A stretch of DNA of 62,105 nt, the filler included, from Sphacelaria rigidula (lineage: Eukaryota): assembly GCA_964200075.2 (NCBI GenBank). It is 2 parts of 2 records of this genome, joined end to end, with 100 filler letters (N's around TTAATTAATTAA, not from the genome) between each part and the next. Parts side by side here need not be neighbours in the genome. Positions count along the whole stretch, not along the records: positions 1 to 31,011 come from CAXNAA020000053.1; 1 more part is not named here. The stretch is one strand, 5' to 3'. Shown piece after piece: positions 1-31,111 of this stretch (its first letter is position 1; the number at the start of each line of letters is the position of its first letter). Both the position numbers and the translations under genes were made by a program. The notes under the pieces were generated by a model. It had not been told where the DNA came from and ran no database searches. It saw only the letters and a program-made list of their open reading frames with translations.

Positions 1-445
1 TTGAACCTCATCTCAAATTTAAACCTCAATTCGCACAATTTGTTGTTGAATGAGTCCCCCCCCCCCCTCCCTTCTCCCCTCCCTTCTCCCGCCGCCAACT
101 CTGTAGAGTCCGTCTTTTTTTGTGGAGGCGTCGGTGCTCTTGAAAAGGCATAGCACCCGACGGTACATGGTGAATGTCTACTTGTAGCGTTTAGATGTTT
201 TGCTCGACGACGGTAACGACTCAGGAGGAGCATGGACAGCCAGGAAGGTCGTCTCATGTGAAAGTGTAATTGCAATCGATGCGGTTCTCATGTTAGTCTC
301 AATCGTGGGCAGTAGTTTCGTGTTCAAAGCATCGCAGAATACCCCACCAACCCGACGCTGCTGATCACGGAGGCATATGTTAACCTCCTCCCGCTATCTT
401 GCACCCACCAAATATATGGCGTAACCTGGTGCTGGCAACAACCAG

Positions 446-2630: not shown

Positions 2631-5600
2631 GTATGACAAAAATATTGTTTGCAGTGCAAAACCTCATGGCCGTACTGCACTACTCATACCCCTATCAGCC
2701 TTCTTGTCAGAACACTGTCGTGTGGTGTTCATAAACGTAAACCACTACATGCATGATGAAAGGAGAATGCTTGGATAGATTGAAGACGAATGAAAAAGAC
2801 ACAGACTAACCGACATTTCCGTCAGTATCGAGCGGTGACTGAATATTGACAATGGTTGAAGGCTAACCGATAGTCCTGACAATGCCAGGCGTTGACTGAC
2901 ACGTGCATGTAAAATACAAACCCGTTGGTAAATGTCGGATTAGGGTTTGGCGATCTGCCGGGCCTCGGCTGCAGATTCGGCGGTGTCGTGGAAGAAGCTG
3001 GCGGCGATATGTTCGAGGCGAATACTGCCCAACCCCGCCACATTTCCTCGATGGAAGTTTCCGCGATCTATGTATCACCCACAGAGGTGGTTTGCATGGC
3101 ACCGGCATGGTCCCCTGAATCACTTCTCGCGGAAGAGCAGAGGAGCGGGACGGTGCGGGTGGCTGTTACGGTTAACGGGCAAAACTACGGACTAGAGATG
3201 GCCCAATTTACGTACTACTCAACGCCGCAGGTATAGTACGGGTGTGTGTGAAACGTTGATTTCAGCCGTTGTGAATATGAGAACGTGGGTAGCGAACGAA
3301 AATCCAGTTTAGGAGAGGCAGCTCGATGCGGGGGTAGTGACCCGACCCGCGATACCAACATGCAAGGCGTGTGCCGGGTGAGAAGTGAGTTGATATCTGG
3401 TGACTACGGACCCGTCCCGAGGAAGAAGAGAGGGTCAAATTTCGGCGAGAGAATTGTTAAATACGTGATGCAGGCTCCCTAAAGCGCCTTTGAGTAAAAT
3501 ATCTCTACGGCTGCGACTATAAGGCTCGTATACACGTAACCAATGTATTAAATGCCGGAACAGTTGACGGAAACGGTGATGTTCAATTGGTGGCGGTTTG
3601 TTCCCTTACTGCCCCATATCTCCACGCGAAACCATGTACTGGCCGAATGGTGTGCAGGTGTACTCCGTATCACCCGACCGTGGTCCGACCACCGGCGGCA
3701 CCGTCGTGACAGTTTCGGGCGTCAATATTTCATCTGCGGCGACTCACCGAGCATCAAGCGACGGAGGAATATTGTGTCGGTTCGGAGGACCGGGTGGACA
3801 AATTGTACGGGGAGTTCCACTTCCGGGAATCGATGCTGTCGAGTGCGAAACTCCCCCTCACCCGGGAGAAGATCCTGACATAGAGGTATTTATATGGAGT
3901 GGTGGGCAAGGGCATGAATATCTGAGCAAGGAAATGGGTCTTAACGAAGAAAACCAGACGAAGAGCTCCTTGCCACTCGCCGAGTTACGAACCTTTCTGT
4001 ACTTACTCTCGAGAAATGTCTCCCTTAGTATTTCTCGAGAACTACTTGCTCGACAACGTTCAGGTCCAATCTGTTATTTACTAGCACAACTCTGACATTC
4101 GACGGCATGACACCGCGGCCACTTCTAATATATTTGTATTTACTATAGTTCGTGGCAACACAAGTACGTGCTTGAAGCGGGAAAAACATTTAAGTCTCGA
4201 GGATAGTTTGAAGGAAATGCTTGAATTTTGCGCACGTTGCAGGTACAACGGGTATCGATCATTGGTCCCGCGAAGCAACCGGAGGTGCAGGTTGTCGAAG
4301 CCCTAGCTCTGCCCGAGGGGGATCCTGTCTACAATGTCTCCATTCGGGGCTGGGGTTCGCAGAAAGAAGTACAAGAGGTCAGGGTTGGGGCGGTGCACGC
4401 TGCAAACGAGACGGCAATTGAGGTGCGTTCGCCTGATATATTATTACATTTCAAGCGGAGTATCAGATTACTGGTACCAAGGAACACACGTGCTGTAGGT
4501 GACGAGCGCAAAACGGAAGTCGCGATTTTTGCGGCGGTGCGTTGTGGTAGACGCATGTCCAGGCGATGAAATTACAAGCGCGTTATTTATGAGGCCTTTC
4601 ATTCTCATGAATATTTTTACACTCGGAAGGATACGAGGCTTCGTGGCTAGTTAGGTCTTTTGTCATGCGTTACCCCATGGCAATAGCTAGCGCGTACAAA
4701 TATGCAGCGGATAGTCTTTGGTAGACCCGTAAAACGGAGCACTCTTTTACGGATCAAGAGGTACCAGTCTCCAAGGTGCCCCTCGGATCGTTGAACCACA
4801 CAGGTTATCCACACTTCGATGGAACTGGCTCGCGAGGTGCAACGTGTGACCGTGGATGCTTCAGCAAACATTAGCGAGGTGAGAGATACGGCATATTGAG
4901 TAAGTACCAGGCGCGAACAATGTCAATGTTGGGGCAAGCCAGTGGGTCTCTGAAGCCTACAGGCTGGTCTGCCGAAGAACCATGAAATATACCGTCTGGA
5001 TCTTTCTCGGTGAGATTCAGGAGTGTGGCGTGAAACTTCGCAATCATCACTCTGTGCGCAAAATAACCATGTACCTTCCTGCGGAGGGAAACGCCTTTTC
5101 AACGCGAGGGTCTTACGATATTATTCATTTCGGAACAATTCACCCTTTTTCGCGCGAAATACACCCTCATGCTAAAGTCGATGATGAAAAATGAGCATAT
5201 CACAACCTTGATGTGTCTGGGTACACTTACGACACATGCCGTCTTTGATTCGTGAAAGGCCACGAGAGGGGAGTAAGGAAGCATGAAGAAAACACGCGAT
5301 TCTCGAGAAAAACAACTCTCGTATTTGATTCTTTGCCCATGGTTGCGAAGAGTTGGGGAGTAAAATTTCGCACCCATGTGTCCATTAAAAAAACAAAAAG
5401 TGATGTTTTCAATAACACAATCAGTATGGATGATATCACTAGTTCCATGTCTTTGCCTTGAAATCCAATATTATCGGAAATCCGGCTTGTTCGGGACGGG
5501 TTTTTTTCTCGCTAAAAGTATAAATATCTCGATCGGAGAGAGGGAAATAAAAAGGCTTGTTCGGGACGGGTTTTTTTCTCGCTAAAAGTATAAATATCTC

Positions 5601-8600
5601 GATCGGAGAGAGGGAAATAAAAATAAGCAATAGCCACGATCACGTTCGTTTGCAGCTGTGCACATGCCGCCCCCCCGGTGTTCTAATGATCCGACTGTCC
5701 CCATAAGGGTAGAGAGAACGTGGGATCGTGCGTACCACCAGATACGTTGAGTTTTTCTTCGAAGATTTTTCGCCGTCGAAAGCGTGAAGATATGAGTAGA
5801 CAAAAAAGTAGTTGCCTGGGTTTGTTTGACGAGAGTTGACGTGGCGCGGTAGCGTTGGTCATGATTCAATACGCGATACCAAGACGTGAGACCAAGACAT
5901 TAGGGGTGTACCGGGGGAGTGATGGATTAATTCCTTGAGACCACGGGCTAGTCCTGAGGGAGGGAGGGGGTCTAAATTGAGACAAAAAAGAAAACGTGTG
6001 TAAATATTTTCGGCTTGTGACTCGTAAAAATGACGAGGGAGAGAGGTGACAAGCTCAAGAGGGTCAGAACTTCTTCAGGGACCACACTTGTCTGATTTGA
6101 CCGTTTCCCTGTGATTACTTTGAGCTGTGAAGTAAGAATGCAGTGTTTTGTGAATTCAAAAGACAAACACGGCATTTTCTTCATGAGCTAAGAAGAATCG
6201 TGAAATAACTGCGACCTGTACTATATTCGAGTATAATATCGCAAAGTTCCGCCCGTCACCAGTATGCAGCGCTTCCGTTCAAAAAGTTGTTTTCAGCGAG
6301 CGTATCATTTCCGTGTCCACCTTGCTCTCCGGAATACTGTGCTTGCCCATAAATGAACACCCTTGGCCTCTGGTCGAGGATATTACTAGGATGGGTGCTA
6401 CGTTACTGTTGTTCCGCAAGAACTCCATATCCACAGCTGTAACCTCACCGATAGAATAGTATTCTTTAGGCATATCGGAAGATACGATACTTCACTCTTT
6501 TCTTCACACCTGCTTCACACAATGTTACCGGGTTTTTCCAGGTCCAGGAGATCACGGTAGCATCCTTGGACGCGTTATCTCTGTCGGGGACGTTTTCTCT
6601 ACGTCACGGCTTCCACGTGTCTTCGCCAGTGCCTTTCAACGCCTCTGCTGCCGAGGTAAAACTGATGTTTCTCAGTGTGCTACGTCCATATACCTGAAAA
6701 CGGTCGCCCTTCCGAGTGAGAGGCGACCGCCGTGCTGGATCGATGAATATGTTCAGACTGTTGGAGTCGGCGTCTGTCGACAAAGCCTTGTCCGTTGGTC
6801 CCTTCACGTAGAGAGTCTCGTTGTACTGCGTGCGAGTTCCATTTTAACTGTTTCTTTTGAAAAAATATGCCCTTCTATTCTGCAAGACAATCGGAATCCT
6901 CGCGGTCGATCTGGACTGGCTTGTTGACAGGTAGACGGTGATGCTGATCATGAAATAACCACGTCTTTTTGTTCATCCCTCCGCCCCACCCCGCCTGCCT
7001 GGATGCCCACGTCATCGGTATCGTTGTGACCGGGACGCTGATGATACCAAAACGCGGAAGGTTGAGGAGGCACTGATGGGGCTTCCAAGTTTGGGTGGGG
7101 GAATCGTTCGCAGAATTTCCTTTTATAACAGCACCACAGGCAGGGAGGGGTTTCAATACAACGTTACACTGGCGTATGCTACGGGCGATTTGGCAGCACT
7201 TTCTGTCGTGGCCTCCGATTTGTCAGGCATCGGAGTTAGCACCACGGTGACAGAGGTAAAAGCTCATATAATGCTGATGTATTGGGTCGGAACAAAAAGG
7301 CACGACTTCGCTGCTATAATGAAGGAGTAGGCTGCCAGTCCACGTGCCGACCTGGTTTAATAGTGTATTTGGTTCGTGTCACGGGCGTTAACATCATGTG
7401 CTGTGGTGTACAGGTTCCCCGCTGTGGGCAAACTTTCGATTGATTTAGCAGTGCAGCAGTGCATTCGCTGAGATAGAGACTCCTGACATCGTGTAGTTGC
7501 GCTGTTTGATAGGAGCACAGCAACACAGCTCCTTGCCGTACAGCACTGCACGAAGCAAAACAATGTTTTGCTGTGACAGTAGTGCAGCTACTTTTGTCGT
7601 GCTTCATCTTGTACGACGTCTCACGTCATGAACGTCGCGTTGTCGACAGTGCTGAGGTAACACAAAAACCTTTGCTCTTCACAGACGCACAACCTGTCCT
7701 TGCGTTTCTCACAATATATGGCAATGCAGAATTCGACTTGCCCTTTGCGCGCTGTTGCTCCAGGTTGTGAAGGGACAGCCATGCGAGGTGCAAGCAATAT
7801 CCACGAGGGCGTCAACAGGAGGCTCGTTTACTCTCACGTATAATGGGGAAACGACCCAAGACATCCCCTGGGACGCCTCGGCAGAAGTTGTTCAAGTTGC
7901 TTTAGAGGTGAGAAGAACAAGTTAGTGCAAGGAAGAACACGGGAAGCAGTGACTGTTCCGCGACCAACTTGATAGGTATCAAGCAAACACGAGTGCACTT
8001 CCTCGTCGGTGCCTCGCCTTGGTATCCAAGCGATCTGCACACCCCTATCGTTGGAGATTCGTCATTTAATTGCCCACATTCCTAAATATCTCGACTGCTG
8101 CTGAACGACTAGTAATTCCCATTCTTCATACAAACAAAACTCACGACCCGAGCCGTGCCAACCCTGAACCTCACTCTAGTTGAAGCGCCAGTCCTAACCA
8201 GTGGGACTTCCTCTACACACATTTTTGCCTGGCGTCACCGCCCACCTATCCAGGATCTGGACTCTGTGGGACGCTTGATGGTAAACCTCACGGATCCAAA
8301 TTCGTACCAACCAGGGGGTAGAACTTGGTCAGTAGCGTTTGTGGGAACCGCAGGCGATCTTGAGCTCATGACGGCTGATGCGGCGAGGCTCCTACCCTCC
8401 CCGTCTTATTTTGCTCGCGGCGAAAGTGAGAATAACGGTTACGCTGACGACGACGACGATGATGATGGCAGCATCGCCTACTGGCCTGTGGATTCGGCCA
8501 CCATAACTGTTTCGGAGACTCAGCGTGGGGAAGCTGCGACAGGTACAATATATGTTCCGAACGCAAAAACATCGTTTTCTACTACTTGGGAAATGGACAG

Positions 8601-11600
8601 ATTTCTCTATGCACTAGACGAAGGCCTATTCAGGGATACTCCACCCTGCAGGCTAGATACTACACCTTCCAGGCAAAAAATCGATACCTGGTGCCGATGT
8701 CGTTCACGCGTTGTCGTCGGTTTGCGGCTCATACGAATTCGGCCCTCGCGCCACAGGCCGAGGAGCGCATTTTCCCGCAGGGATGAGCGTGTGTTTCTCT
8801 CTCGAAAAATCGGCTCGACACTCGCCAGACCTTGCCTGCCGGGTGTCCTCGCCACCGGCACGTTGTGGACGTTAGGCGAGCGAATCCGTATCTTTTAGAT
8901 TGGGTGTGCCCCACCAAACAGTTGGTTGCTGGACAGGTCAACTAGTTCATAGAATATATTATGAGCACCCTACATTCGATAACAGTCGGCTCAACCTACT
9001 ACCTTTTGATGCTGATGGGCTACCGCGGCGGTCTTTGGACCGTAAACGTTCTTGTCACACGAACAAAACCAATGCGAAGCACCGCCTATAGGCCTTTTGA
9101 TATTTGGTACGTAAATATTTGGGCTGGAGTCTTCCGTTGCGCAAACCACGGGCTCATTTTTGTTTTTCATATGTTAGCACACACGTCTATCATGTGCCCA
9201 CGGCTGGATCCCTGGAGAGTTTGTTAAAGTACGACAATCAAATGAAATCGAATGAAAAATCGCACGAAAGCCAGTTTGGTAGCACAGGTGTTTCCATGGC
9301 GGGCGCTTGGGTATTGTTCGACACCACCAGTGACGTTCTATGAAGTATATCGCATGGCGGAAAACCGAACCTAGTTATTTGCCACGACCAAAACAGACGC
9401 ATGGGCTTCGGAGGCAGATGGCACGCCGTTTGTTTCTGGCGATGACGAAGAGTTCGATCTGGATAAAACTACCACAGTATCACAAACCCCAACCCCTTTT
9501 TCAATCGTTCTTTGGGGAACATGGACTTGGCTTCAGCGGAAGACGTATTCAAGTGCCCAACAACTGCTGGTGTGTATCATAACCACCGACTCCCGCGGTT
9601 TGTTGTATCACAACTACTGACCCCTTCAGATGGGCGTGCCTCGGGGAGTCTTGTCATCTCCTTTGACGCTGACGGTGACGGAACGATCGATGTGGACGAA
9701 CTTGCTACGCTGGGGGTCGATGCTGACAGCCTTGTTGCACAGGAGGCACTCCAAGCTCTGGAGGGGCTGCTTTTGGGAGTCGAGGTGTCTGTGGATGAAG
9801 ACAGCGAGCATCGAGCAAGAAATGGAGGTACATGGCGGCGCTGCGTTGTTCAAACTTACACGCTATTGGCCAGTTTGGGCGGGAGTAATGAGTTCAAAAA
9901 CCGATGGTAATTGTATATTTGTTGGTTCGTGTCGTATGGATCGTGAGGATATGAGCTAGGGAAATTTCGACCAACGTCGGGGGGCTGGGAGAGGGTTGAT
10001 CCAACTTTCGACGGGAAATCCACTTGTTTTATATCTTGTCTTCTCATTTCCACGCTTTTGTCGAGTTTTTTTCAGTAACTGTTTCCGGTTCTTTGTCCTG
10101 GGTATGTGTATCTTGCGACCATGGCTGTATTTGTAGTGTGTCGCTTAGTGTAATGCAGTTTATTCATCGATCCAACCATTTACCGATCAATCATGAAAAT
10201 GTCAGGCAGGTACCAAGGGAAAGATGTGTCGATTCGTTAAGCCTGCGGAGTCGTCTCGAAAACATCGTGAGGGCGACGACTTAAACTACGACTGGAAAAT
10301 CATGAAACCGTGATGATCCAGCGCTTGACTAGATACAAGAGACACACGCTGTTAACACACTAAGGGTTGACGCTTGTCACCGGTATCCTGATCGATGAGA
10401 GCTTCGGCAGGTGGCCCCTTTCGTTGTTGTCCGGATTGCATGACTGTACCCGACCGTTCGGGAAATCGCAACTGTTCAGGCACGAACAAGCACGACAGTT
10501 ACAATATGTATCTTCTGAACGGGCGCCGAATATCCGCCCTGTTCAGCGTGGTGCAAATCAGAACAATAACACATTACCAGAGTGTTTGTACATCGAACAC
10601 CACATAAGCTTTTCCTCGCGTGCGGAAACTGACCGGTCAATGATACGTTTCAACAGGCACTGCATGGCTCATAACCTTTCCCGAAGGAAATAACTATGAC
10701 GCTCTCCAGGTTGATGTTTCGGGCGTGGCAGGAACATCTCCGTTCGCGCTTGTCGAAGAGGTGCGAGAAGCTATTGACTTTGCGGTATTGTGTGTTTGAT
10801 AGTAGTTATGGTAGTGGCGATGCACCCGCTGCGGCTTGCAGCTATCATTCAGCATTGCGGCGAGTCGAACAAGATACAATTTTGATTTTAGCGACAACTA
10901 CGTTGGATGAAGAAAAACTCTCATTTTGCTTTGCTGACAAATTGCCGAACAAAATCGATATTTGCACGACAATCCGTTAATTATGTTGGTTTGTTTGGCA
11001 TACTCGGAAATAAAAATGGTACAAAAACAAAGACGCCGCTTCGTACATGATTTTGCCCCTGAAGACTTGGAGTACTCAAAGTCGTGTGTACGCACCTGGC
11101 ATCGTGCAGTAACAGCAGCTTCCTGAGCACGCATTTCTAAAATAGCCTGCTAGTTAATGGTAGCTGTCCGTTTTCGGGATGCATCCTCTGCCGATGTGAT
11201 TGGTGCAGTAGTTTGCAGCTGCAATAGGGGGCTTTCGTATTGTTTTCGTAGTCGGCGATTTTCAATAGTATTTTCGAGTGCCACCGCTCATCTCCGTGAA
11301 AGTTTGATCCCAAAGTTTGAGGATTGAGATATAGTAGGCATGCGTTCCACATTCCGAAACAAGATCATTTCTGCACTCAAGATTGAACTGATTACGGGCT
11401 GACCGTTTTCGGGGATCCTGCGGCTACCCATCCCCAGCTTCTGATCCTTGGGTATTTTTGCTGGATTGAAGCAATCCCGCTCGTTGTTGTAAACAAACAA
11501 AACATAGTGTTCTTTTTTGTTAAATTTCTACCTATTCATTGCGCCAGAGCTGGAAAACTGTGTTTTTTGGCCCAATGACGGTCGATAGCACCCCCATGAT

Positions 11601-14600
11601 AAACGAGGTACTTACTCAGTGTCACCCCGACAAGACCAGTTGAGGATTTCGCCGTGGGGGTGACATATTTCGTTTCTCAATATCTATCGACGCTGGGGCT
11701 TTCGCGTGCCAAAGAAGAATAATATACGAGAAAAAATCAGAAAATGCCCAACTACGAAAATGCCCAACCGAGCGTTACATAGCACAGGGGTGTACTCATG
11801 ATCATGCGTGCCATAGTCAGAAGACCATTGACCTCGCATCCCTACAGNNNNNNNNNNGTTTTCGCCGGACCAGGCTCGCACTCAAACCACCAAGCGCGAA
11901 GCACCGTGGTGTGCTCAGGCGGGGGGTGAAGGAATCCCGATCGCTCTCGTGAATAATTGCACAAGCCCTTATCTGTAGTTTCACGCATTCAGCGCAATAG
12001 AGCCGAAAACGAGTGTGGTTTGGACCAAAAGCGGTTTGCAGCACCCCCTGTCAACTCAGCCCGTAAGTCGTCCGATATTAAGCGCAGAGACGATTCTTGT
12101 TTCGGAATGTGGAGCGGGTACGTAGTATCTCCCGATCCCCAAACCCCGGGATCAAACGTTTACTTCGATAAGCTGTGGCATGCGGAAAACTATTGAGAAT
12201 CGTCGACTACGAAAAATTTCAAACCTTTCCTATCTCAGCTGCAAACCACTATAGACCACTAGCGGAAATACAATAATGATCCTGACACTTGTCGATACCT
12301 GGGTGCCACGTCTTCAGGCTGCGTAAAATGTTACTCAGTTCTGAGCAGTCTTGCGTTTTCTGAATAGTATGATTTGATCGTTTCCACCATACTCTTTATG
12401 AGTTACGAGGTGAAAAAATGCGGCTACGTGCGCATTAAAAAAGCAAAACAGTTTGGCACCTGCACACTTGTTAATTAGTGCGTTTCCAATCAAAATATTC
12501 GGAGAATCATACTCGTCGGAGGTATTACATTCCGCCTTAATGTCGAAATATATCGAGTTGAGAGTCGAGGCTTGAACAATGAGCCACACTGACGACATGT
12601 GGTTTCGTGAATGTGTACAAGTGCGTGAAGGTTTCAATCATGAATCTCAGAAACCATGGAAGAACAACAAAATATGTAGTGTATTCCGCCATAAGAAAAA
12701 TACGAAAATGCTGGTGAACGTATGCCATGTTTTATCACGTGTTTCTCCCACATTAATTCTACGAAGTGCGGCTTGAAATTTGATCCAAACGTGCATTGCA
12801 AAACACCAAAAACGATAATTATGTTCAGCGTTCCTTTTCGTATTCAAGAACAATATATTCGTCGCACAGGATGTGGAAAATATTTTCAAATTGTCCAATA
12901 TCCGAATATCGCAAGCTCAACATCGGGAGCAACTAACGAGCTACAACCCCGATTTCTGTATATGGAATGCACACACGTGCATGTAAGTTCAAGCAATAAT
13001 TCATAACACCCACTGAGGAAAATCCGGGGAATGGACCGCCAACTCTTGTAACTTGGCAGCTGCCCTTACAGATCAGCATAAAGTAGTCATCCTTGTTTCG
13101 CTTCGTCATGTTATGATGAACAAGCAGCTACTCGAGCGAACCCCGCAGCAGTCTCGTGCCCGTCTCGTTATTAAGCAGCTATCGTCTTAATTGTGTTCGC
13201 CAGGCTGTCCCGGTGTGCTTTTTGGTAGCACTAGCTGATGCACAGAATCCAGTTTTTTACAGAAACATTTTCCCCCGCGAAACAAAACGCTCATTGCTAT
13301 TCCTTTACGCAAAACCTGCGGCTTTTTGCCTCTATCTACGTGCCTTTTTAACGACATTCGCTCACGAAGGTGAAAGCGGGTACACAGTTGGAGGTACAGA
13401 TGGTGCAGACTACGGGGACTCCAACTGGGGAATTTTTCCTGGGCTTCGGTGGAGGTACGAGACGAATGTTGGGTTTAGGTGTACGTGAGAAGCAAGGGCG
13501 GGGATGGGAACGTGACACCAGTAGCGACTGCAGGCACAAGAGGTGTGCTTAATATTCAGCCTCGTCCATAACGAAGAATATGTGATTTTGATTACGACAG
13601 GACGTCAAGGGCGCTTACCTTGGACAAATACGCCCGAGTTTCAAGAATCATGCATTCACGGCTGTTTACAATAGAGGACCATACACCACCCGAATCTTGC
13701 GCACGTGTGACGCATTTCTGTAGTTATCCTCTACGGCAGCTCAAAAGACGCTTGACCGAAAGACGATTTACCTTGTGCACAGTGAATAGTCAGCAGCGCA
13801 GCACCATTCCTATCGTCCGCCAATGAAACTAGTAGCTCCTACTTTTCCAATCGGGAACTTTACCGAAGCGCAGCGTGGGATGAGTGCCGTCCTTGATATG
13901 CTCCAGCATCTTTCCCCGGCGGTAGATCTATGCAAGTAGCCTTTTTTGGCCAAGAATTCTCTCTGCCTAGGCTTCGACCCGAGCATCAAACGTTTCGAGC
14001 ACTACATCTGCTTCAAATCCCCAGTCGCATAGCGTCGTGGATGGCGAGGCGCGGGAAAACCATAGCATGCTCTTCTTGGAACTGCGCGCCTGCGCACGAT
14101 GCGCTGTACTTGTCGATATTGTTCGAAAACCACGATCCATGATGAACACTGTGAACAACAGGTGGTCCAATGGGATAGGAGAGGAGCGAGGTCGGTAGTG
14201 TTCTAGAGCGGAAATCAGGGAACGTCGAACGCAATGGGTGGAAGTTTGAACCAATTTTTCACCCCTCCCGTCCCATCTCGCTCCACGACTCCGCACTGAT
14301 AGAGGACAGCGATTATGTGTCCTTCGACGCGTCAGCCTCTGATTTGAAGAGTACGCTCGAGGCCCTGCCATCCGTTGGAACGGTTAACGTTTCTCGCGAA
14401 GATATGGGAGGGGACCTGTACGCGTGGACTATTACGTTCACCGAGCCATCCAGTTCCGCCTACACTACGACAACTGAAGTGGAGGATGAGGATGGCACGA
14501 CCACCACTACTACTCTGCTGTCGTTTCCGCTTCTGTACGCGGGTGGGGTTGAAAGCGATGATAGATTCGGGCTTGGCACTCTAGGGACGGGGAGTGGCTT

Positions 14601-17600: not shown

Positions 17601-20600
17601 TTTCCTGCAAGCCTTCATGTGTTTTACAACATACACAATGACATGAATGTTTCGCCCTTCTGCCTGTTGTTTCGTCTTTCTGGTGTGCTTCCTCCGTTTT
17701 CCCAGATGACTGGGGATCCATCACCGTAGACTACACAAATCTCCTCGATGGCGGCTCCATTTGGACAATAACCTTCGAGGACTATGCAAATACAGCCCGT
17801 GCGGGCGGTGCGCCACTCTTGAACATATCGAGGGATAACCTCACAAACGGGACTGCGACAGTTGCACGGATATCTGCGGCTGCAAGCCCGGTCGTGCATC
17901 GTGTGCTACTATCGTCAATATCCACCCTTGATGCCAGTGGAGTTTTCGAAATGTCGGTGGCCGGCGTGGTGACTCGGCCTGTTTCTGTGGACGCGTCGGC
18001 TGTCGTCCTCCAAAATGTAATTATAATTTGGCGTTGATTCGCTCAACAGAGAGCAACAACCGTCGCTCATCAGTTCTGAAGCTGAGTGGAGGTGTACTCA
18101 CGTACGTACCTATAGATGATGAGTCATTTGGGTGTTGAGCTTAGAAGCTGAGCACACGGCGGGCTCCCGTAGCTCTTCGCGTGAGCTGGTTATAGTCGAG
18201 ATGTCCACACATAGCTTACCCGTTCATTGGCGAGCATCATCATTTTACCGGAGCGGATATGATGACCAATCACGGGTGATCCGCTCACCTGGCCACGTAC
18301 AATCGAGTACGAAGCAGGTCACTTTTATGGCATCTCGTGCGTGGTTGCACAGCTGAAATTCGCGGAATGACTATTTTCCTGCCAACGTTGCACAATCGCT
18401 TTGACGGTTTCTGCTCCGGAACCTGGAAGCCACGCAGTATTAACAACGTTTTCGCGAGATTGAGAGTAGAACGCTGAGTGAGAGTGGCTTCGGTCATTCG
18501 CTTTAATTTGGTCATTTTTTCATTCCGTGTGTGCTCTTATTTCCCTTTTATCACTAGCGTGTGCTTAGAGCTACACGCCGATATCCTCTCAGGGATATCA
18601 AGGGCCTCAGTGGCAAGCTACTACAGAAAGACTATCGGGCCTGGTGGAGGGGCATTTCGGAATTGAAACGATTGATTCACTTATTGACCGCTTTTCACTC
18701 TCAATCGTATCCTCTACTCTCAATTTCACGGAAATATTGTTTATTGTGAATGCTCGTCCGTAACGAAAAACGACTTGTCACGGTGTCTGCGGACGACGAC
18801 GTATGATGCGGTTCACAAATCTTATCCTCTAAGCACCAGTAAAGCACCCACGGGAACGTGTCTGGTGTTATGCTCTGTATTACATGGGCCGGCACGGCAC
18901 TTGGCACCGAAGCTTAAAGGCACTTGTTTGCAAGGGTCGTCCGCTCTTCTCTTGGTCCCTGTTCACCGGTACTGTTTTTCATCGGGGCCGGTTACTCGTG
19001 CCCTTTTTCTCCTTTCACTTCACCTCCTCTTTGTATTTATTCTCTTATGTCTGCTGCCCGCTCTCGTTCAGGTCACTTTGCGTGTTTTATATTTCTGTCA
19101 TTTGCCTTTTCTCGACTTTCCTCCAAGCGAGCGTTTTCCTTGGTAGGCCGTCGGAGGGTATATACTTTGCCCACGACTCAATTCCTCGGCAATCAGCCAA
19201 AGTGATGAATGAATCGATCAATCATTCAACCGATCGATCATTGAATCAATAAATCTAAATGAGTCAACCCATCCATCAACTATACTCATCAACGTCCCCG
19301 CCGTGTAAATGACCTCAGGTACTTCGGGAAGATTTCTTATCCCTTGGTCTTCAACCAACTGTTGAGCCAGTTACCGCGACAGATCTCCGGCTTGCTGGGG
19401 ATCACCGTGCGTGGGACATTGCCTGGTCTTCGATTCCTGGCAATGAAATGGCGACATCCAACTTTTCCTGCACCGGCATCAACTTAACTACGTCTTACAC
19501 GGGGGATGGAGTGTGCACCATCACCCTCGTCGAGAACTCGATCGGCGGTGTTCCTATTTCAGGGACATTTTCCATAACCATCATCACCAACGCCGGCGAA
19601 ATAACCGAAGAAGGCGAGCTGTGCAACGATAGGCGGATCGTAGGTATTTTTAGATTCTTCTCAGACGCACTCGAGAAGAGTTCGAAATGGTTTTAATCAA
19701 TCGTGGTGACACTACTGTGCGGTGGCAACGGCTCATCACTGTCGATGCCGGCAGTGCCAACACAGCGGATGAGAGGGCGTAGTAGTTCAAATGTGTTTCG
19801 GTGACTTATATTGCGGACCTGCCCTAGATCCTAGATCATATCCCCACAATGCCACACTTTCCGTAGTCGTGTCTCTTTTTCGATTGCTGTGCAACTCAGG
19901 TGGTGCTGCTTGGGGAGGATTAACGTCGGAAACCACCGTCCAACTCGCGCACAACGCAAGCGCCGACACGCTACAAACGGCTCTTGAAGAGTTAGGTAAC
20001 GTGGGTGCGGTATCGGTAGAGCGTGTCCGAGCTCTCCCACGAGAAAACGGCGGCGGAGGTTCCTATCTTATCACCTTTTTAGGCAGCAGCTATACTGATA
20101 TCGTAGATTCTATGAACGGCTACATGTCTTTGTCCATATCGGCGGAAACGAATCTGTATGGAACAATGGCTGATGCAGCGGTAGAGGTCGTGTACCCAGG
20201 GTCACAGTGGGGTGGCGAGTTTGCGCTTTCTTTCGGCGAGGTCGAGGGAGAAGCGTTGGCTTTCGATGCTCAACCAGAAGAAGTCCAAGAGGCGATTGAA
20301 GCGCTTGCTGTTTCTGCTGGTGCGGGTGAAGACGACAACGTGGAAGTGTGGCGAGAGACGTTAGAATCTGGATATCGATGGCTGGTGACATTTTCAGGTG
20401 GATATTTGGACGGCAATATTGATCTTCTCAAGGTGAGCACATGTGATGGATTATATTAAACTTATATGAATCTTTTCGTGAGCGGTAATTATTTCATATG
20501 CCAACAGCAAGAGTAGAATAAAGTCACATAGGTCGTGGGTAGATGGCATGCCGATGGTTCATGGGCAAGTGAGCTTCCTCGCGTATTTGCACCAAGCGGT

Positions 20601-23600
20601 AGAGAACCCGACCGTGGTTGAAGATCGCTGCATGGTCTAATCGTTTTAGTACGGTTTTCATATAAGGCGCCTCCGGGGTAAAATAGTATGATGGCGACGT
20701 AAATAACAGAGCCTCTGGGATGTGACTATCCATCTGGGACATCAGTCTGGGGTGTTCACCAAGGGTACCCACCCGAGATGTAAGCATCTATCTGGGAGAT
20801 CTGTCTAAGATTCACAATCTCTGCATGAGGTCAAACCTGTATAATGTCTACGATGTTAATCTGGGATGTCGATATCCATATATCCATCAGGGCTATGCAC
20901 CTGGGATATTCGTGTGGAGTCTCACTTGCATCTGCTATGGTCATGTGGACAATATTGTACATCAGTGCGCAAAAACACACCGCTATGTCATGGTGCGCTG
21001 ATTGATATTGAAGCCCCACCAACGCGTACAGTTCTTGGCTTTCACCGATGCACACCAGCCTAACTATATGTCCTACCAGAGCGCTCTAAACTGTGCTTCA
21101 CCAGCGCACGCTAGTTTACCTGATCGTACAAGTTATCCGCGAGCTTGAGTCAGGGTTAGGGTTACAGTTGGGGCCCTGAATTGGGTCGGATGTTTAACGG
21201 GTGTCTGCGATCATAAAGGTTTGGCGACATGCAGAAACGGGTCTCAGCAGGTGAGTCATTCCAGATGGACATCCATGTCCCGTATAGATATCCATCTGAG
21301 ACATTCGAAATCCAGGTAGATAGTTCTTCCGAGGGGTCTCCATGCCTCAGATGGACGTCCGCAGTAGATGCCCCATATGAAGCCTTGGATATCCAAGATG
21401 AACCCTGGGATATACTAGATGGACATCCTATATGACCATTCGTGTTCCAGATGAACATTCATGCCCCAGGTTGATTTTCCATGTGGAAAGTTTATATCAG
21501 GGATTGAGGTCTGCCTCCCAGATTGACGCCCACACACCTAACGGGTGTCCCACATGGACATCCACATTCAAGATGGACGGATCCATCTGGGATATCCGCA
21601 ACCTTCGGATGGATTCGGCCCGCTTGGGCTTGAGCCTCACGAAGGGCCAAGAACGCGTCTTCTGGAGTGCAGAGGATAGCACACATGATAACACTCGACC
21701 ACACACGTATATGAAAGAGTGCAGCAAGCCGGTGCAGTATTATTAAAGCTGGCATGCCGTAGTAGGGCACATAACAGCACAGCATAGCGTAGCATAGCAC
21801 CCCACCGCAACACTGTACCATACAGTCGATTACAGTCCCATATATGCACAGCTGTACCTACGTATGTAACCCTATCACCGATGAACGTGACTCCCAGCTA
21901 AATATGTCAGGGCAGCAGTGATAGGTCTTGACAGGGTGGTTCTGTGTCAAGCCAAGAGTACAGTGCAGTGGTCCGGTACACTCATCACAGTATATACGCG
22001 GAGAGGTGTGCAAGCGAACAGTGATCTATGCTCGCACCAGTTTGGATGCGATAGTCGCTGCTTACGGCTTGTGACCCCCATCATGCTGCTGCAAACCATG
22101 GCTGAAGGGGAGATACATGAGTCGTGGACTTTGCCAGAGCTGCGTGTTGTCTGAGAAGACAGATTTTCCGAAGACCTCACCCTATTCGAACAAAAAATGG
22201 TCAATGATTCACCTATACAGCCATCAAGTCCTTTTGACCCTGGAAGGATCCAAGTCACTCAAACATTACACCCGCGTCTGGTTTGCCTCGGTAGAAGTGC
22301 TTAATCATGCAATTGAGTATGTTCTTCCCCTGGTGCGCTTCTCCTGTATGATCGAAAAGACAACTGCCCGTTAATGGTCGCTGATCACTTGATCCCTCCT
22401 CTTTCTCTCTCTCTTTCTCTCCTGATGTTATTGGTATAAAGCCTGAATCACGCTTATCACCCATACCTCACTCATCCGCATGTGTTCACGCCTATTATTC
22501 GAGTTAGACTCTGAAAAATTACACACATATATAATGGAGCATTAGAAAACTTCCTGTGAATGAGATATTTCGAATGGTTTGTTTTCCGCCCGTTATTGGG
22601 GGTTCCGGAAGTCATGTGGGGCCCAGAAACCCCGGATAACTCGCCAAGAAGAAATAATCAAGAGATTCCACCTATATAAAGTTTTGTAGTGTGCCATAGT
22701 GTATGTGTGCAACGTTTCAGAGTGTAAGTCCAAAACTCGCCATGAACTTATCCGCTTTTGTGCGATGAAGCAAGCTGTAAACAAAGTCCTCATTACTCGA
22801 TTTGTAGTATGAAAAAGTCTACGTCGGGAATATCTAAGTTAATGCGAGAAAACACTACATCAGGTTTTAGAGGTTCACAACGAAATTTCGTAAGCATGCT
22901 CTCTGAGCTACGCCGGGATGTATATAATTATATGATTTTATTTTGAGCCATTTTGTACCGGCTTTCGGGGGTCTTTACGCTGGGATCCCCGGAAGCCGGT
23001 ACAGAGATGAGAAACCTTGGAATATTTGTTGGGGCAAGTTTGGCAGCTTATTGGGCCGTTTGCCCTCGGTCGTGCGGTGTGTCAACCACTCCGCAGAGGT
23101 CTCAAGTCTCCAGGCCGTGGAAATAGGTGAAAAGAAGTGTGAGTTCTTGCGTCTCCATGTCGTAGAGAGATAAGAAAAAGGGTCAGAGAAGTTCTTGATC
23201 AATTCGGTTTTGTGCCGTGCCGTGGGTTGGACGGCGGCTGTGGAAGGCCCATATTGGTCAAAAAGAGGTACACTTTGGACATATTTTGAGGCAGAAGAAG
23301 ACAAAATGAGGTACAAGATACTCTCAAAAGGTTTTGCCGAATACACCTCCGCCCCGATGGTGTGATGGTCCGACCGTCGCCATTAGGGTGGAGAGAACGA
23401 GGGTTCGATATCCGATGTGTTAGATTTTTTCTTCGTAGTATGTTATTTCCACCGTGGAAAGAGTGAGAACGTGTGTAAACAAAGTAGTCGACTGAGTTTG
23501 TTTGACGTGAGTTGACGCGGTGCGGGAGTGCCGATCCAATCAGCGAGACCAAAGTGCAAGGCGTGTACCGGGGAGAGACGGGTTGATCCCTTGAGGCCAC

Positions 23601-26600
23601 GGACTCGTCCCGAGGAACGGGAAGGATTCAAAGTACGATAAATAAAATTAGTAAAGAACATGATGACAAATTAGGGTTTTCTGCGAGGACTTTTTTCCCC
23701 GCGGCGCTGTTCGGCCGTGAAATCGCGTTTTTATTTCGCAAAAATTGATGTACGTACTCTGCATGGGCTGTGGACGCCTTGCCTTTGCGTGGGGATCGAT
23801 TTTTGAATGTCTTGGGTGTAGCACGGATAGCTTCCACTTGCGCGGTTACCTGTACCTACGTTTAGGCTGAAATAGATGCCCTATTTATTAGTAAACTTTT
23901 CACGTTTGGAGCACCGGTATTGATACTCACGGAACTACCAAGTTCGAGACCGGTCGGAGCTTTTCTACAACAAGATCGTCAGGATGTTTCTGGGTCTTTC
24001 GTGCATATCATTATTAAATATCCGACGCCGCCAAAACCTCACATCACCCACATACCACGATCTGGGATACAACTCGACGCCATAGAAACCGTTTTGAAAT
24101 CCGGCTTTTGTGCTAGATTCCTGAGCTGATAGTAGTTACTATGATTTGAAAGATGTGGAGACTGAATAGAAACTAGGCTGGGAATTCGTATATCATTTTT
24201 TTTATTTAGAACAATGTGAAGAGCGTTGATTGGTCGAGGTACCTTTTCGCCCTTGGCGCCATCGCTATGACCATAAACAAATATTCGGGTAATATCACCC
24301 TATTCGTTTGTTCTTTGCGATCAACATGATACGAAGTATGTGACTATCATCAGGTAAGTCTTACGGAAGATGTTTGCTGATGAAACAGTTTTGGGTTGTA
24401 AGCATGAACCGGCCTGTATAGTGGCACCGCCGCAAAAGGAAAAATGACGATGTCAGCGCTACATATACGTGGTGCTGATACGGGGTGGGGCCCAAAAGGG
24501 TAGTACCACATGTGTGCCCTAGATGCGTGTTTATTTACCAGATGCAGTCACCGCGATCACTCGCCCAACGCCAAAAGATTAACCACAAGCGAGAGGCTAT
24601 TGCGTTCAGAGTCGTCCATTAGGGCCCCGTCACCGGTTAGGCGAGAATTGCAAATCTATTCCGCGAGCAATCAAAGTTGGAGATGCCCGAGAGAGAAGCC
24701 CTGCTTTGTCTCCGACTCTGTATTCTACTCTTTATGCGAGTTGTCTTCGTGGAGTGCTTCCATTTATTCACCCCGAGTACGTCTGTCCTATAACCACGAC
24801 CGATTCGTGGCAAACCAGTTCTTGTGCGATGAACCATCATTCGATCACTTTGTCAATCCCTCAAAGGTGTAAGTGTTTTGGTCTGTCCTACAGCTGTAAC
24901 CTGGCTTGTTTTCGTCCGTCGATGCCAATGGGGACCTCTGCGGTTTGATTTCCATCAAGTGTTTCCTGCAACAGCTCCACCGTTGCTTATTGGACCAACT
25001 GAGTTCCATGCATCACATTTAGCCTTTTCCGACGGCGTCAAGCCGGAGATATAAGGAAGGAAGGAATAGTTGCTTACGCTGTTTTTGGCCATTTCGGAAC
25101 TGTATGATGCGATTGACCCTTGTTTGCGTCGAGACAAGCAGTGCACCAGGTGATCACTCTTCTCAGATGCTGATGCTGCCACGCCCCACTTGTTCATAAG
25201 TAGTATAGGGTATTCACACACAATGACGCACCTTAGCTTAACGTGGGTATGTTGCAGGTGGCGTGGTCGACGCTGCGCGGCACAGATGGGAGAGTCAACG
25301 TCTACCGTTCGGCCAACGGGGTAGATTCACCTGGGGGTAGTTTTACGCTATCATTCGGGGACGATTATCCGACAGAACCTATTGTTGCGAACGCTACCCC
25401 TGCCGCCCTCGAGGCAGCTTTGGAGGCCCTACCGACCGTTGGCGACGTCGCGGTGACCGTGGACACCTTATCGCGTTCTGATTTGGTCGACCAGACGACA
25501 TATACGGCGTGGCTGGTAGAATATACTACGCTCGGCACGCCTCCAAATCTTGGCGACCTGCCCTTACTCGGGACAGATGGATCATTCCTAACAGGCACAA
25601 ATGTGAGTGCTATGGTGGAGGAAGTGTCGAAAGGCTGCTGTGCGGTTCAACTAAGCGTCAATGGGGGGCAAGATTACACCAGCACCACTGCAGTCGGAGG
25701 GAAAGCTGGTGGCAACACAGCAGCGTTTAAATACCAAAATCGAGCCGTGGTCCGGACGATCCTGCCAAGCGCAGGCCCGGCTGCCGGGGGGACACAGATT
25801 TCCGTTTCTGGCGCTGGCTTCGACGCACCCTCATCGACATCCTCGGAGATGGAAGCAGGACTGGTATCAACGGAAGGTAGTGGTAGCGATATGACTTGTG
25901 TGTTTGGTGGTCGGCTGGAATCACCTGGAGTTCGCCTAAACTCCTCCGTCGTGCTGTGTAATTCGCCGCCTGTACAGCACGGGAGTTCTCGCGTTGTGTC
26001 AGTCGCTGTCCGATGGTCGGGATCCGTTTTCCCGTCCCTCACAACCGCAGCATTTTCGTACTACGATGAAGTTATGTTGGGATCGCTCGCACCCCGCCGG
26101 GGTTCGAACGCCGGCGGATACTCAACCATTGCATCTGTTGCCGACGGCTCATTTGATGTGGTTGGATTCGATATGGTGACGTGCATCGTAGAGGTGCGCC
26201 TACCCAGCAATATTACTGGTAGTTACACAACGCGAGGATTCATCAGCGAAGCGGAACCGGTGCATAAACGAGCTGCCCTGGTGGACACAGGTGACAGCGG
26301 CAGTGACCGGGTTTCCAATGAGGCATACTCCTGCGAAATCCCCGGAATAGGAGATTTGTTTGACGGAGTGAGTGGCGAACACTGGCTCGAAGGAGATTGG
26401 GGCGCGATAGCCCTCGTCAGCCTCTCAGGAAACGGTGGTGTTGATCGCTCATCATCTCTCTCCTTCACGTACACAGCGCGGCCTAGTGTTGTAGCTGTTG
26501 AGCCAACGTTAGGTGGAGATACCGGAGGGACACCCGTCATTGTTCGGGGAAGACGCTTGACGCAGCCGATTGGTGGGTTCAACGACGGTGAAGTCTTATG

Positions 26601-31011: not shown

Positions 31012-31111
31012 NNNNNNNNNNNNNNNNNNNNNNNNNNNNNNNNNNNNNNNNNNNNTTAATTAATTAANNNNNNNNNNNNNNNNNNNNNNNNNNNNNNNNN
31101 NNNNNNNNNNN
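31012..31111. other. Artificial contig-joining spacer (N44-TTAATTAATTAA-N44)
   Basis: Exactly 100 nt. The central 12-mer at 31056-31067 gives stop codons in all six frames. Confidence 0.95.

What the first reader, a model, noticed from the sequence alone, without database searches (positions are those of the whole stretch)
3658..25740. Nested 'out-and-back' stalk: an IPT domain split by ~1240 aa in which six orphan EVQ strands match six strand-less repeat domains
Seen: the IPT domain that starts VYSVSPDRGPTTGGT stops after CETPPH (~3860). Its missing last strands (AVQLSVNGGQDY...AAFKY) reappear only at 25642-25734, after 3720 coding nt. The insert opens with six consecutive strands that have no domain attached: IEVQRVSII, PEVQVVEA, PVYNVSIR, KEVQEVRV, AIEVIHT, REVQRVTV. 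Ten repeats follow. D1 (SEVQEITV), D2 (CEVQAIST), D4 (LEVQMVQT) and D7 (PVVHRVLL) carry their own leading strand. D3, D5, D6, D8, D9 and D10 start directly at the GxFxL strand, so six domains lack one. Inference: the chain runs out as an extended string of strands and folds back, each strand-less domain clamping one outgoing strand last-in-first-out (S6-D3, S5-D5, S4-D6, S3-D8, S2-D9, S1-D10). This would return the chain to close the IPT domain, like intramolecular donor-strand complementation. The result would be a mechanically reinforced side branch on an extracellular IPT rod. I know of no description of this architecture in algae. Two of the strand assignments (PVYNVSIR, AIEVIHT) are degenerate.
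Basis: partly seen in the sequence, partly recalled or inferred. Interest (0 to 1): 0.88.

Follow-up and report, generated by a model that had tools for sequence, protein, structure and literature searches.

The report
Nested split-domain stalk in algal protein
A giant algal surface-type protein appears to build a side stalk by sending out a string of single beta-strands and then returning domain by domain, each domain closing around one earlier strand, which would be a very deep case of domains nested inside domains.

Summary
A 17-exon model with AG/GT at every junction and an open 1361-aa frame gives an IPT domain cut after CETPPH (3658-3885). Six lone strands follow at a period of about 14 residues, then ten repeat domains. 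Four of these carry their own EVQ strand and six do not. The missing IPT hairpin lies at 25636-25734.

The repeat has no Pfam family. It is related to the C-terminal-extension (CTE)-like domains of mycobacteriophage Bxb1 (window D10 against 9d93 gp23, E 3.3e-10).

The 6 lone / 6 strand-less count recurs in three distant full-length relatives. Across 153 relatives, strand runs and domain runs match in length (0 of 10000 shuffles).

AlphaFold2 models of a related unit hosted in a split FN3 domain are confident (pLDDT 93-95, pTM 0.75-0.82). In them the FN3 closes from its two distant pieces. The domain matches form nested intervals: 54-168 inside 37-284 inside 21-386. This is last-in-first-out pairing.

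The best description is recursive domain insertion, seven levels deep in this window. Not tested: a fold of the window's own spliced product (the tools take no joined sequence), RNA support, and function. No description was found in seven literature searches.

The parts
425..3233 (+). Upstream exons of the same gene: an array of complete IPT/TIG domains, each ending with a V-x-V-x-x-N-G-x-D-F ... F-x-Y hairpin.
   Evidence: ORF listing; tblastn to P0110 and P0154.
3658..3885 (+). IPT N-part (strands up to CETPPH) followed by the linker PGEDPD and the first two residues (IE) of S1. The exon ends ...DPDIE|gt.
   Evidence: It matches positions 5-66 of a home-made 97-position IPT profile, E 3.5e-15.
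4243..4422 (+). Exon with lone strands S1 (3880-3885 plus 4243-4263), S2 (4279-4302), S3 (4324-4347), S4 (4363-4386) and the start of S5 (4414-4422).
   Evidence: Coordinates were worked out by hand from these outputs.
4804..4878 (+). Exon with the rest of S5 (4804-4815), S6 (4831-4854) and the first two residues of the D1 lead strand (4873-4878).
6542..7775 (+). D1, own lead strand SEVQEITV. Exons 6542-6655, 7061-7255 and the start of 7764-7907.
7776..8542 (+). D2, own lead strand CEVQAIST (7782-7805). Exons 7764-7907 and 8254-8542.
9630..13381 (+). D3, strand-less. Exons 9630-9827, 10657-10760 and the first 12 nt of 13370-13454.
13382..14625 (+). D4, own lead strand LEVQMVQT (13388-13411). 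Exons 13370-13454 and 14303-14649.
14626..16683 (+). D5, strand-less. End of exon 14303-14649, then exons 15876-16057 and 16530-16819 (first part).
16684..17887 (+). D6, strand-less, begins TSPCCVGG inside an exon. Exons 16530-16819 and 17706-18016 (first part).
17888..19540 (+). D7, degenerate own lead strand PVVHRVLL (17888-17911). Exons 17706-18016 and 19319-19643 (first part).
   Evidence: The corresponding strands in P0003 and P0154 carry the IQ/VQ motif.
19541..20201 (+). D8, strand-less, start inside an exon. Exons 19319-19643 and 19900-20432 (first part). An acceptor at 19918 fits as well as 19900.
20202..25320 (+). D9, strand-less, start inside an exon. Its last strand follows the 4.8-kb intron (20432|25258).
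   Evidence: The junction is collinear with P0110.
25321..25635 (+). D10, strand-less, entirely inside one exon.
   Evidence: It matches Bxb1 gp23 with E 3.3e-10.
25636..25734 (+). CC followed by the missing IPT F-G hairpin (AVQLSVNGGQDY...AAFKY), which would close the domain begun at 3658.
   Evidence: It matches positions 73-94 of the home-made IPT profile only weakly: 4.6 bits, E 0.0087 among 5 sequences.
25735..30141 (+). Continuation of the gene: complete IPT domains, then a second split IPT (…CTTPQH) with further EVQ strands and repeats. It is collinear with unit 2 of P0110, which has 5 strands and 5 repeats before its own IPT closure.

Best explanation
The segment 3658-25734 encodes one IPT domain with a 1252-residue insert between the strand ending CETPPH and its last hairpin.

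The insert is a recursively nested array of ten copies of an alpha/beta domain of about 100 residues. This domain belongs to the same family as the mycobacteriophage Bxb1 CTE-like domains. Its first beta-strand carries the EVQxI motif.

In six copies the first strand is separated from the rest of the domain by everything that lies further out. The chain lays down S1 to S6 on the way out. It forms contiguous D1 and D2 at the tip. It then returns: D3 closes on S6, D5 on S5, D6 on S4, D8 on S3, D9 on S2 and D10 on S1. The contiguous D4 and D7 sit as side buds. The two ends then meet and the IPT sandwich closes. Every stalk domain is therefore crossed by two passes of the chain.

The result is a rigid hairpin-shaped side branch on an IPT rod of a giant protein that is presumably extracellular.

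Shown: the exon anatomy, the counts, their conservation, homology to the phage domain, and the closure and nested pairing in AlphaFold2 models of a homologous FN3-hosted unit. Inferred: the same pairing and IPT closure in this gene, extracellular location, and a structural or glycan-binding role.
For: Gene model. There are 17 exons, all AG...GT, with an open frame of 1361 aa. Junctions are collinear with P0110, P0154 and P0003.

Balance in the window. Ten strands (6 lone plus 4 own) face ten repeats (plus reading). Read as brackets, the order returns to zero exactly at the CC closure.

Conservation. P0163, P0164 and P0165 (24-28% identity) each show six lone strand positions after an IPT N-part and then a CC closure. 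Ten repeats are detected in P0163 and P0164 and eight in P0165. P0163 shows the same own/less order. Unit 2 of P0110 has 5 strands and 5 repeats before its IPT closure.

Family-wide balance. I examined 469 internal strand-run/repeat-run blocks from 89 of 153 proteins; Spearman rho is 0.51. Of the 50 blocks with 3 or more strands, 32 differ by at most 1 and 11 are equal. 0 of 10000 shuffles reach 32. A transcript-derived protein (P0034, MMETSP) has a run of about 10 to 13 strands at a 13-residue period, followed by 12 detected repeats.

First AlphaFold2 model. The unit P0001 767-1370 with 52 homologues gives pLDDT 93.3 and pTM 0.75, with the lone strands at pLDDT 95-98. 49 of 50 PDB matches are FN3 domains, Z 11.6-14.4, rmsd 1.6-2.6, 87-100 residues aligned, spanning model residues 1-4 to 604. 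The split FN3 therefore re-forms.

Second AlphaFold2 model. The natural fragment P0040, which lacks the host pieces, gives pLDDT 94.8 and pTM 0.82. Of 50 matches, 22 span 54-58 to 162-168 (own strand plus repeat 1), 2 span 37 to 282-284 (S3 plus repeat 2), and 23 span 20-24 to 376-386 (S2 plus repeat 3). The last group aligns 60-98 residues to single small alpha/beta domains. The remaining 3 are poor.

Homology to solved structures. Window D10 against 9d93 gp23 gives E 3.3e-10. A profile of the family gives 3e-20. By fold, Z is 11.5, rmsd 2.3, 87 aligned, 25% identity.
Against: No structure prediction was possible for the window's own spliced product, so pairing and IPT closure here rest on homology.

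No coordinates or PAE were returned. Pairing is read from the first and last aligned residues only. The S3 plus repeat 2 class has only 2 rows at Z 4.9-5.4. S1 plus repeat 4 was not seen, because that repeat is truncated in the model.

The closing hairpin matches my IPT profile only weakly (4.6 bits). The closure pieces of P0110, P0003 and P0154 did not match the expected profile part at all.

Three of the ten window strands (S3, S5, D7 lead) are below 5 bits on the motif matrix.

The family counts are not independent, because many proteins are related. Detection also misses strands: 1140 strands against 1509 repeats in total. 18 of the 50 long blocks differ by more than 1.

No RNA evidence exists for the exon model.
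Confidence: 0.75

Rival explanations
1. Intermolecular strand exchange. The lone strands of one molecule complete the strand-less repeats of a neighbouring molecule. The proteins would then polymerise or cross-link, as pilus subunits do.
For: Incomplete domains plus free strands are what donor-strand polymers use (recalled knowledge of chaperone-usher pili). The AlphaFold2 models were monomers and cannot exclude swapped dimers.
Against: Strands and repeats balance within each unit bracketed by the two halves of one host domain. The host closes within one chain in the model. The pTM of 0.75-0.82 shows a self-consistent monomer.
Confidence: 0.08
2. The lone strands are only a spacer or a small sheet of their own. 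The strand-less repeats are complete five-strand variants that need no extra strand. The equal counts would come from shared duplication history.
For: S3 and S5 are degenerate. A 14-residue period could make a beta-meander. Block counts often differ by one or more.
Against: In the P0040 model, 23 of 50 single-domain matches start at residues 20-24 and end at 376-386, and 2 span 37 to 282-284. A separate strand sheet could not give these ranges. The lone strands have pLDDT 91-98. The split host domains need the chain to return.
Confidence: 0.07
3. Gene-model artefact. Unseen exons supply the missing strands, or the lone-strand exons belong to another transcript.
For: No RNA run holds the gene. 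D3 and D5 begin at introns.
Against: Four of the six strand-less starts lie inside exons. All 17 exons join in frame with AG/GT. P0003 sits on a 5237-nt contig with no room for introns, and P0034 is an MMETSP transcript; both show the same strand-less repeats and strand runs. Three full-length relatives keep six lone positions.
Confidence: 0.03

Closest known systems
Mycobacteriophage Bxb1 C-terminal-extension (CTE) and CTE-like domains: gp14 capsid, gp19 tail tube, gp23 'tail tip cage' (PDB 9d93, 9d9w). Phage Patience (8giu) has one too.
   Same: Same domain family. The EVQ lead strand, the GGxFxL strand and the NAS..v..AL..L helix align by sequence. The fold also matches: Z 10.2-11.5, 83-87 residues aligned, 24-25% identity. 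The phage domains are surface-exposed. Passages of PMC8704799 call the phage extensions non-essential and immunodominant with unknown function. [quoted passage not shown]
   Different: In the printed alignments to gp23, the phage copies each start with their own EVQ strand next to the domain. No lone strands, no nesting and no split host appear in those matches.
Recursive domain insertion in the cyanobacterial RNA polymerase beta' Si3 region.
   Same: The pattern A1-B1-C-B2-A2 is repeated several times with domains of one kind, giving an elongated out-and-back structure. A 2026 survey of 2.7 million classified domains presents six-level nesting there as its example of complex nested organisation (PMC13114784, abstract and passages read).
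   Different: The fold, the cytoplasmic enzyme context and the organism all differ. Here the piece left behind is a single strand. The depth is seven in this window by bracket count, and runs of 10 or more strands occur in relatives. The host is an IPT or FN3 domain of a giant protein that is presumably extracellular.
Donor-strand complementation in chaperone-usher pili (recalled, not tested here).
   Same: An incomplete beta-sheet domain is completed by a strand that lies elsewhere in sequence.
   Different: In pili the strand comes from another subunit and the fold is Ig-like. Here the donor is in the same chain, the fold is alpha/beta, and the pairings are nested.
Insulin receptor FnIII-2 with its insert domain (4zxb appears; the insert itself is recalled).
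   Same: An FN3 sandwich interrupted by a long insert and still folded.
   Different: Per recall, the insert there is largely disordered and is not a nested domain array.

Membership tests
IPT/TIG domain (PF01833) | Sequence passes the Pfam gathering score. | tested here: met
   The frame holding the N-part scores 33.5 bits against a cut-off of 20.9, E 4.1e-08.
IPT/TIG domain (PF01833) | The whole sandwich is encoded by one continuous stretch. | tested here: not met
   Only profile positions 3-70 of 84 are matched before the exon ends. The F-G hairpin lies 1252 residues later.
IPT/TIG domain (PF01833) | The two pieces together cover the domain and associate. | tested here: inconclusive
   The pieces match complementary parts of a home-made profile: 5-66 strongly and 73-94 weakly. 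The closure motif is conserved in 4 relatives. Association was not modelled for the IPT host. It was modelled only for the FN3 host of relatives.
Bxb1 CTE-like domain family (no Pfam model found) | Significant sequence similarity to the solved phage domains. | tested here: met
   Window D10 against 9d93_Ma gives E 3.3e-10. The profile of A3 gives E 3e-20. P0040 gives E 1.1e-05. Pfam finds nothing for D10 or for the repeats of P0040.
Bxb1 CTE-like domain family (no Pfam model found) | Same fold. | tested here: met
   This was tested on the model of relative P0040, not on the window's own repeat: 9d93_Ja Z 11.5, rmsd 2.3, 87 aligned; 9d9w_Aa Z 11.2; 8giu_1 Z 10.2.
Bxb1 CTE-like domain family (no Pfam model found) | Contiguous domain with its own lead strand. 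| tested here: not met
   6 of the 10 window copies lack an adjacent lead strand.
Recursive nested domain insertion (A1-B1-C-B2-A2) | Domains whose sequence ranges enclose one another. | tested here: met
   The ranges 54-168, 37-284 and 21-386 are strictly nested in the P0040 model. The FN3 host spans 1-604 in the P0001 model. For the window itself this is inferred from the bracket order of strands and repeats.
Chaperone-usher type donor-strand complementation | The completing strand comes from another polypeptide. | not testable with these tools
   Only monomer models were made. The balance within each host-bracketed unit argues for the same chain.
Chaperone-usher type donor-strand complementation | Ig-like pilin fold. 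| tested here: not met
   Apart from the phage tail/capsid and FliD rows, matches of the repeat are to small alpha/beta domains (RRM, ACT, HMA) and not to Ig-like pilins.

The most novel reading that the evidence does not exclude
This protein family builds stalks by unbounded recursion. Each domain is inserted after the first strand of the previous one, so the sequence reads like balanced brackets (n strands, then n domains, with side buds). The depth is seven in this window and ten or more in relatives. That would be deeper than the six-level nesting that a 2026 survey of 2.7 million domains presents as its example of complex nesting. Such a stalk can only fold from the tip inwards, and the innermost strand waits more than 1200 residues for its partner. 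It would be a new way to make long, rigid extracellular rods whose two ends emerge together.
Probability: 0.55. Interest if true: 0.9.

Novelty: new variant of a known kind. Interest (0 to 1): 0.8.

Why it matters
If the models are right, domain insertion can be iterated far beyond what has been catalogued, using a single beta-strand as the piece left behind.

The family then offers a natural test bed for several questions. How do deeply discontinuous domains fold during and after translation? How do out-and-back rods resist force? How did a phage and actinobacterial surface domain become the building block of giant proteins in stramenopiles, including oomycete plant pathogens and diatoms (names)?

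It also matters for annotation. The lone strands look like low-complexity linker, and the strand-less repeats look like truncated domains. Domain callers and gene predictors will therefore mis-segment these proteins.

Tried and rejected
RNA support. The look-up of sequencing runs listed 7 runs and no RNA holder. Four runs were laid on 3600-23599. X1 and X4 behave as unspliced DNA. X5 and X6 cover almost nothing of the gene. No plus-strand splice joint was seen, so the exon model has no RNA test.

Complex prediction on the window's own exons (19902-20432, 25258-25740, partner 4243-4422) gave 'no answer'. I make nothing of it either way. The tool did not use the alignments I supplied.

No whole genome is held for this window.

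Earlier findings of this scan: three look-ups returned nothing.

I first thought the 'L-G..a-v-v-ev..G' segment before strand-less repeats might be their lead strand. I rejected this because repeats with their own strand have that segment as well as the EVQ strand, for example VSTTVTEVVKGQPCEVQAIST.

A local MAFFT run timed out, so I used the alignment tool instead.

The home-made IPT profile did not place the closure pieces of P0110, P0003 and P0154 where expected.

A weak match of D10 to a solved chain named OCM6 (9ufe, E 0.064) was not confirmed by the family profile at E 0.01. It did not appear in the Foldseek list either.

Literature. Seven full-text searches found no description of this architecture. 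Supplements are closed and subscription journals are not covered, so this is not proof of absence.

The coordinates in 'parts' were worked out by hand from earlier outputs.

Full report
WHAT IS THERE

The window is eukaryotic DNA with a long multi-exon gene on the + strand. No whole genome is held for it. Exons from 425 to 3233 encode a run of complete IPT/TIG domains.

The next IPT domain starts at 3658 (VYSVSPDRGPTTGGT) and its exon ends at 3885 with ...CETPPHPGEDPDIE|gt. Pfam TIG is passed (33.5 bits, cut-off 20.9), but only profile positions 3-70 of 84 are matched.

I built a 17-exon model by listing GT/AG sites and choosing junctions that keep the frame and align best to relatives. All 17 exons have AG...GT borders. 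The frame is open for 1361 aa. 3756 coding nt (1252 aa) lie between the IPT N-part and the CC that precedes AVQLSVNGGQDY...AAFKY at 25636-25734.

Several introns sit in phase 0 exactly between the E and the V of a lead-strand motif (E|VQ, or E|VI at 4422|4804).

THE SIX LONE STRANDS AND TEN REPEATS

After the IPT N-part come these strands: IEVQRVSII, PEVQVVEA, PVYNVSIR, KEVQEVRV, AIEVIHT and REVQRVTV. They start at model residues 76, 90, about 104, 118, about 135 and 147. The lead strand of D1 starts at 161.

A motif matrix trained on relatives scores S1, S2, S4 and S6 and the leads of D1, D2 and D4 at 10.8-20.7 bits. S3, S5 and the D7 lead score below 5 bits. S5 lines up with EVQRIAT at the start of P0110. 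The D7 lead lines up with xIQTVV or xVQTVV in P0003 and P0154.

A repeat profile finds ten repeats in order and none on the minus strand. D1, D2, D4 and D7 have a lead strand 10-16 residues before the GxFxL strand. D3, D5, D6, D8, D9 and D10 go directly from the last strand of the previous repeat into GxFxL. For D6, D8, D9 and D10 this join lies inside one exon.

WHAT THE REPEAT IS

Pfam has no family for it. The ESM Atlas lists only unnamed clusters, from diatoms, green algae and Actinomycetota.

The repeat is related to solved phage domains. Window D10 matches Bxb1 gp23 'tail tip cage' (9d93) with E 3.3e-10, and the alignment includes the GGxFxL...NA(S/T)...AL motif. A profile of the window's family gives E 3e-20. 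In the printed alignments to gp23, the phage copies each begin with their own EVQ strand.

[quoted passage not shown] RELATIVES AND THE COUNT RULE

A full HMMER scan with a relative's unit found 1962 proteins at E 0.001 or better. Many are giants of up to 7591 aa.

Named members come from Phaeothamnion, Choristocarpus, Aphanomyces, Phytophthora, Pythium and the diatom Leptocylindrus. There are also an MMETSP transcript, a record labelled Sphagnum, and two bacterial MAGs.

P0110 (Phaeothamnion, 35% identity) is collinear with the window. It has the same own/less order for D1 to D10 and the same closure, AGCCAVEVTLNG. Its second unit reads strand, strand-repeat, strand, strand, strand-repeat, repeat, repeat, repeat. 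That is 5 strands and 5 repeats, followed by an IPT hairpin.

Three full-length relatives at 24-28% identity (P0163, P0164, P0165) each show an IPT N-part, six lone strand positions at the same spacing, then the repeats and a CC closure. Two of the six positions are degenerate in each. Ten repeats are detected in P0163 and P0164 and eight in P0165. P0163 has the same own/less order as the window.

In relatives P0001 and P0004 the host is an FN3 domain, cut after strand C and resumed after the array. This unit has 3 lone strands, one repeat with its own strand and 3 strand-less repeats. It is conserved over its whole length in many proteins.

Written as e for strand and C for repeat, the giants read like balanced brackets. 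For example, P0007 begins eeeCCCeeCCeeeeCCCCeeCC.

I examined 469 internal blocks from 89 of 153 proteins. Run lengths correlate (rho 0.51). Of the 50 blocks with three or more strands (from 36 proteins), 32 differ by at most one and 11 are equal. No shuffle of 10000 reached 32.

There are caveats. The proteins are related. The matrix misses degenerate strands (1140 strands against 1509 repeats). Nested words such as the window's break simple blocks, so 18 of the 50 long blocks do not fit.

STRUCTURE MODELS

Model 1 is P0001 767-1370. It was aligned with 52 homologues, chosen from the 84 that align over 250 or more residues. I left out the proteins longer than about 1540 aa and the weakest matches. 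The result is pLDDT 93.3 and pTM 0.75. The three lone strands are beta-strands at pLDDT 95-98.

Against 48161 PDB chains, 49 of the 50 listed matches are FN3 domains. They have Z 11.6-14.4, rmsd 1.6-2.6 and 87-100 residues aligned. The first aligned residue is 1-4 and the last is 604. The host therefore re-forms from pieces about 500 residues apart. The one other row (9d9w, Bxb1) spans 94-199, which is the repeat with its own strand.

Model 2 is P0040, a 454-aa database fragment with the four strands and the repeats but without the FN3 pieces. The result is pLDDT 94.8 and pTM 0.82. Its 50 matches fall into these classes:
- 22 rows span 54-58 to 162-168, which is own strand S4 plus repeat 1. 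The top rows are Bxb1 and Patience at Z 10.2-11.5.
- 2 rows span 37 to 282-284, which is S3 plus repeat 2, at Z 4.9-5.4.
- 23 rows span 20-24 to 376-386, which is S2 plus repeat 3. They align 60-98 residues, and 22 of the 23 rows have rmsd 2.9-4.5 Å (rank 32 has 6.0 Å). The targets include small RRM, ACT and HMA-like domains.
- 3 rows at Z 4.7-5.0 and rmsd 6.0-9.4 Å fit no class.

A compact domain of 60-98 aligned residues cannot start at residue 21 and end at 386 unless the strand at 27-33 lies in the sheet of repeat 3. The intervals are strictly nested, which is the last-in-first-out order.

S1 with repeat 4 was not seen, because repeat 4 is cut off in this fragment. Ranges give only the first and last aligned residues. 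I had no coordinates or PAE.

HOW IT MOST LIKELY WORKS

Each strand-less repeat plus its distant strand is one discontinuous domain, with everything further out inserted after its first strand.

Read as brackets, the window's order is S1 S2 S3 S4 S5 S6 [D1] [D2] D3 [D4] D5 D6 [D7] D8 D9 D10. This gives the nesting D10 > D9 > D8 > D6 > D5 > D3 > {D1, D2}. D7 is a sibling of D6 inside D8, and D4 is a sibling of D3 inside D5. That makes seven levels inside the IPT host.

The chain ends meet, so the IPT can close and the main rod continues with the next IPT at 25741. The stalk is crossed twice by the chain at every level. It must complete from the tip inwards.

Extracellular location and a structural or glycan-binding role are inferences from IPT/FN3 content and from the phage relatives. 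Neither end of the gene was defined.

COMPARISON AND NOVELTY

The fold family is known from phage cryo-EM. Recursive insertion is also known: a 2026 survey presents six-level nesting in cyanobacterial RNA polymerase Si3 as its example of complex nesting among 2.7 million domains (PMC13114784, abstract and passages).

What is new here is the combination: a single strand left behind, a depth of seven in this window and runs of 10 or more strands in relatives, split IPT or FN3 hosts, and giant eukaryotic proteins.

Seven literature searches found no description. I rate it a new variant of a known kind.

WHAT REMAINS OPEN

No RNA run holds the gene. The complex test on the window's exons gave no answer. 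IPT closure in this gene is inferred. The closing hairpin matches my IPT profile only weakly, and the three relatives' closure pieces did not match it.

Noticed in passing
window 9713-9788 joined to 18110-18201: One 168-nt contig of run X5 (guessed to be RNA) joins these two stretches. The skipped part begins CT and ends AC, which is GT..AG on the minus strand. This suggests a spliced antisense transcript with an 8.3-kb intron across D3 to D7. All its reading frames have stops.
   Followed up: partly
window about 8936-9602, 11604-12270, 18274-18940, 22943-23599: Introns of the gene hold very high-copy sequence: summed contig depth in the thousands to hundreds of thousands, against about 30 elsewhere in run X1. 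Many contig joints link these places, so they look like dispersed repeats. The assembly gap at 11848-11857 lies inside one of them.
   Followed up: no
window 25258-25641 (D10): D10 weakly matches a solved chain named OCM6 (9ufe_FA, E 0.064, residues 245-333) with the same FxxxYGxxxxTxPI...AALExLP motif. If OCM stands for the Ochromonas mastigoneme proteins (recalled, not checked), the repeat may occur in stramenopile flagellar hairs. The match was not confirmed by the family profile or by Foldseek.
   Followed up: partly
window 26416-30141: A second split IPT (…AIECTTPQH) opens another unit of strands and repeats. It includes the tandem AREIQVVRV / AEVQSITV before an intron at about 27300, and repeats at 26836-27102, 28346-28534, 29096-29272 and 29767-30141. 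Its end was not found, and assembly gaps lie at 31012-31111.
   Followed up: partly
relatives P0169, P0173 and the Atlas cluster: The repeat also occurs in bacterial proteins (Moraxellaceae and Pirellulaceae MAGs, where it accompanies RTX-type repeats PF00353) and in an Actinomycetota cluster, besides the mycobacteriophages. The direction of any transfer between phages, bacteria and eukaryotes is open.
   Followed up: no
D6 start (about 16690) and IPT closure (25636-25641): A vicinal CC pair sits at the start of strand-less D6 and at the start of the closing IPT hairpin. It is conserved in P0110, P0154 and P0003 at both places, and in P0158 at the closure. None of the six lone strands of the window has a cysteine.
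   Followed up: no
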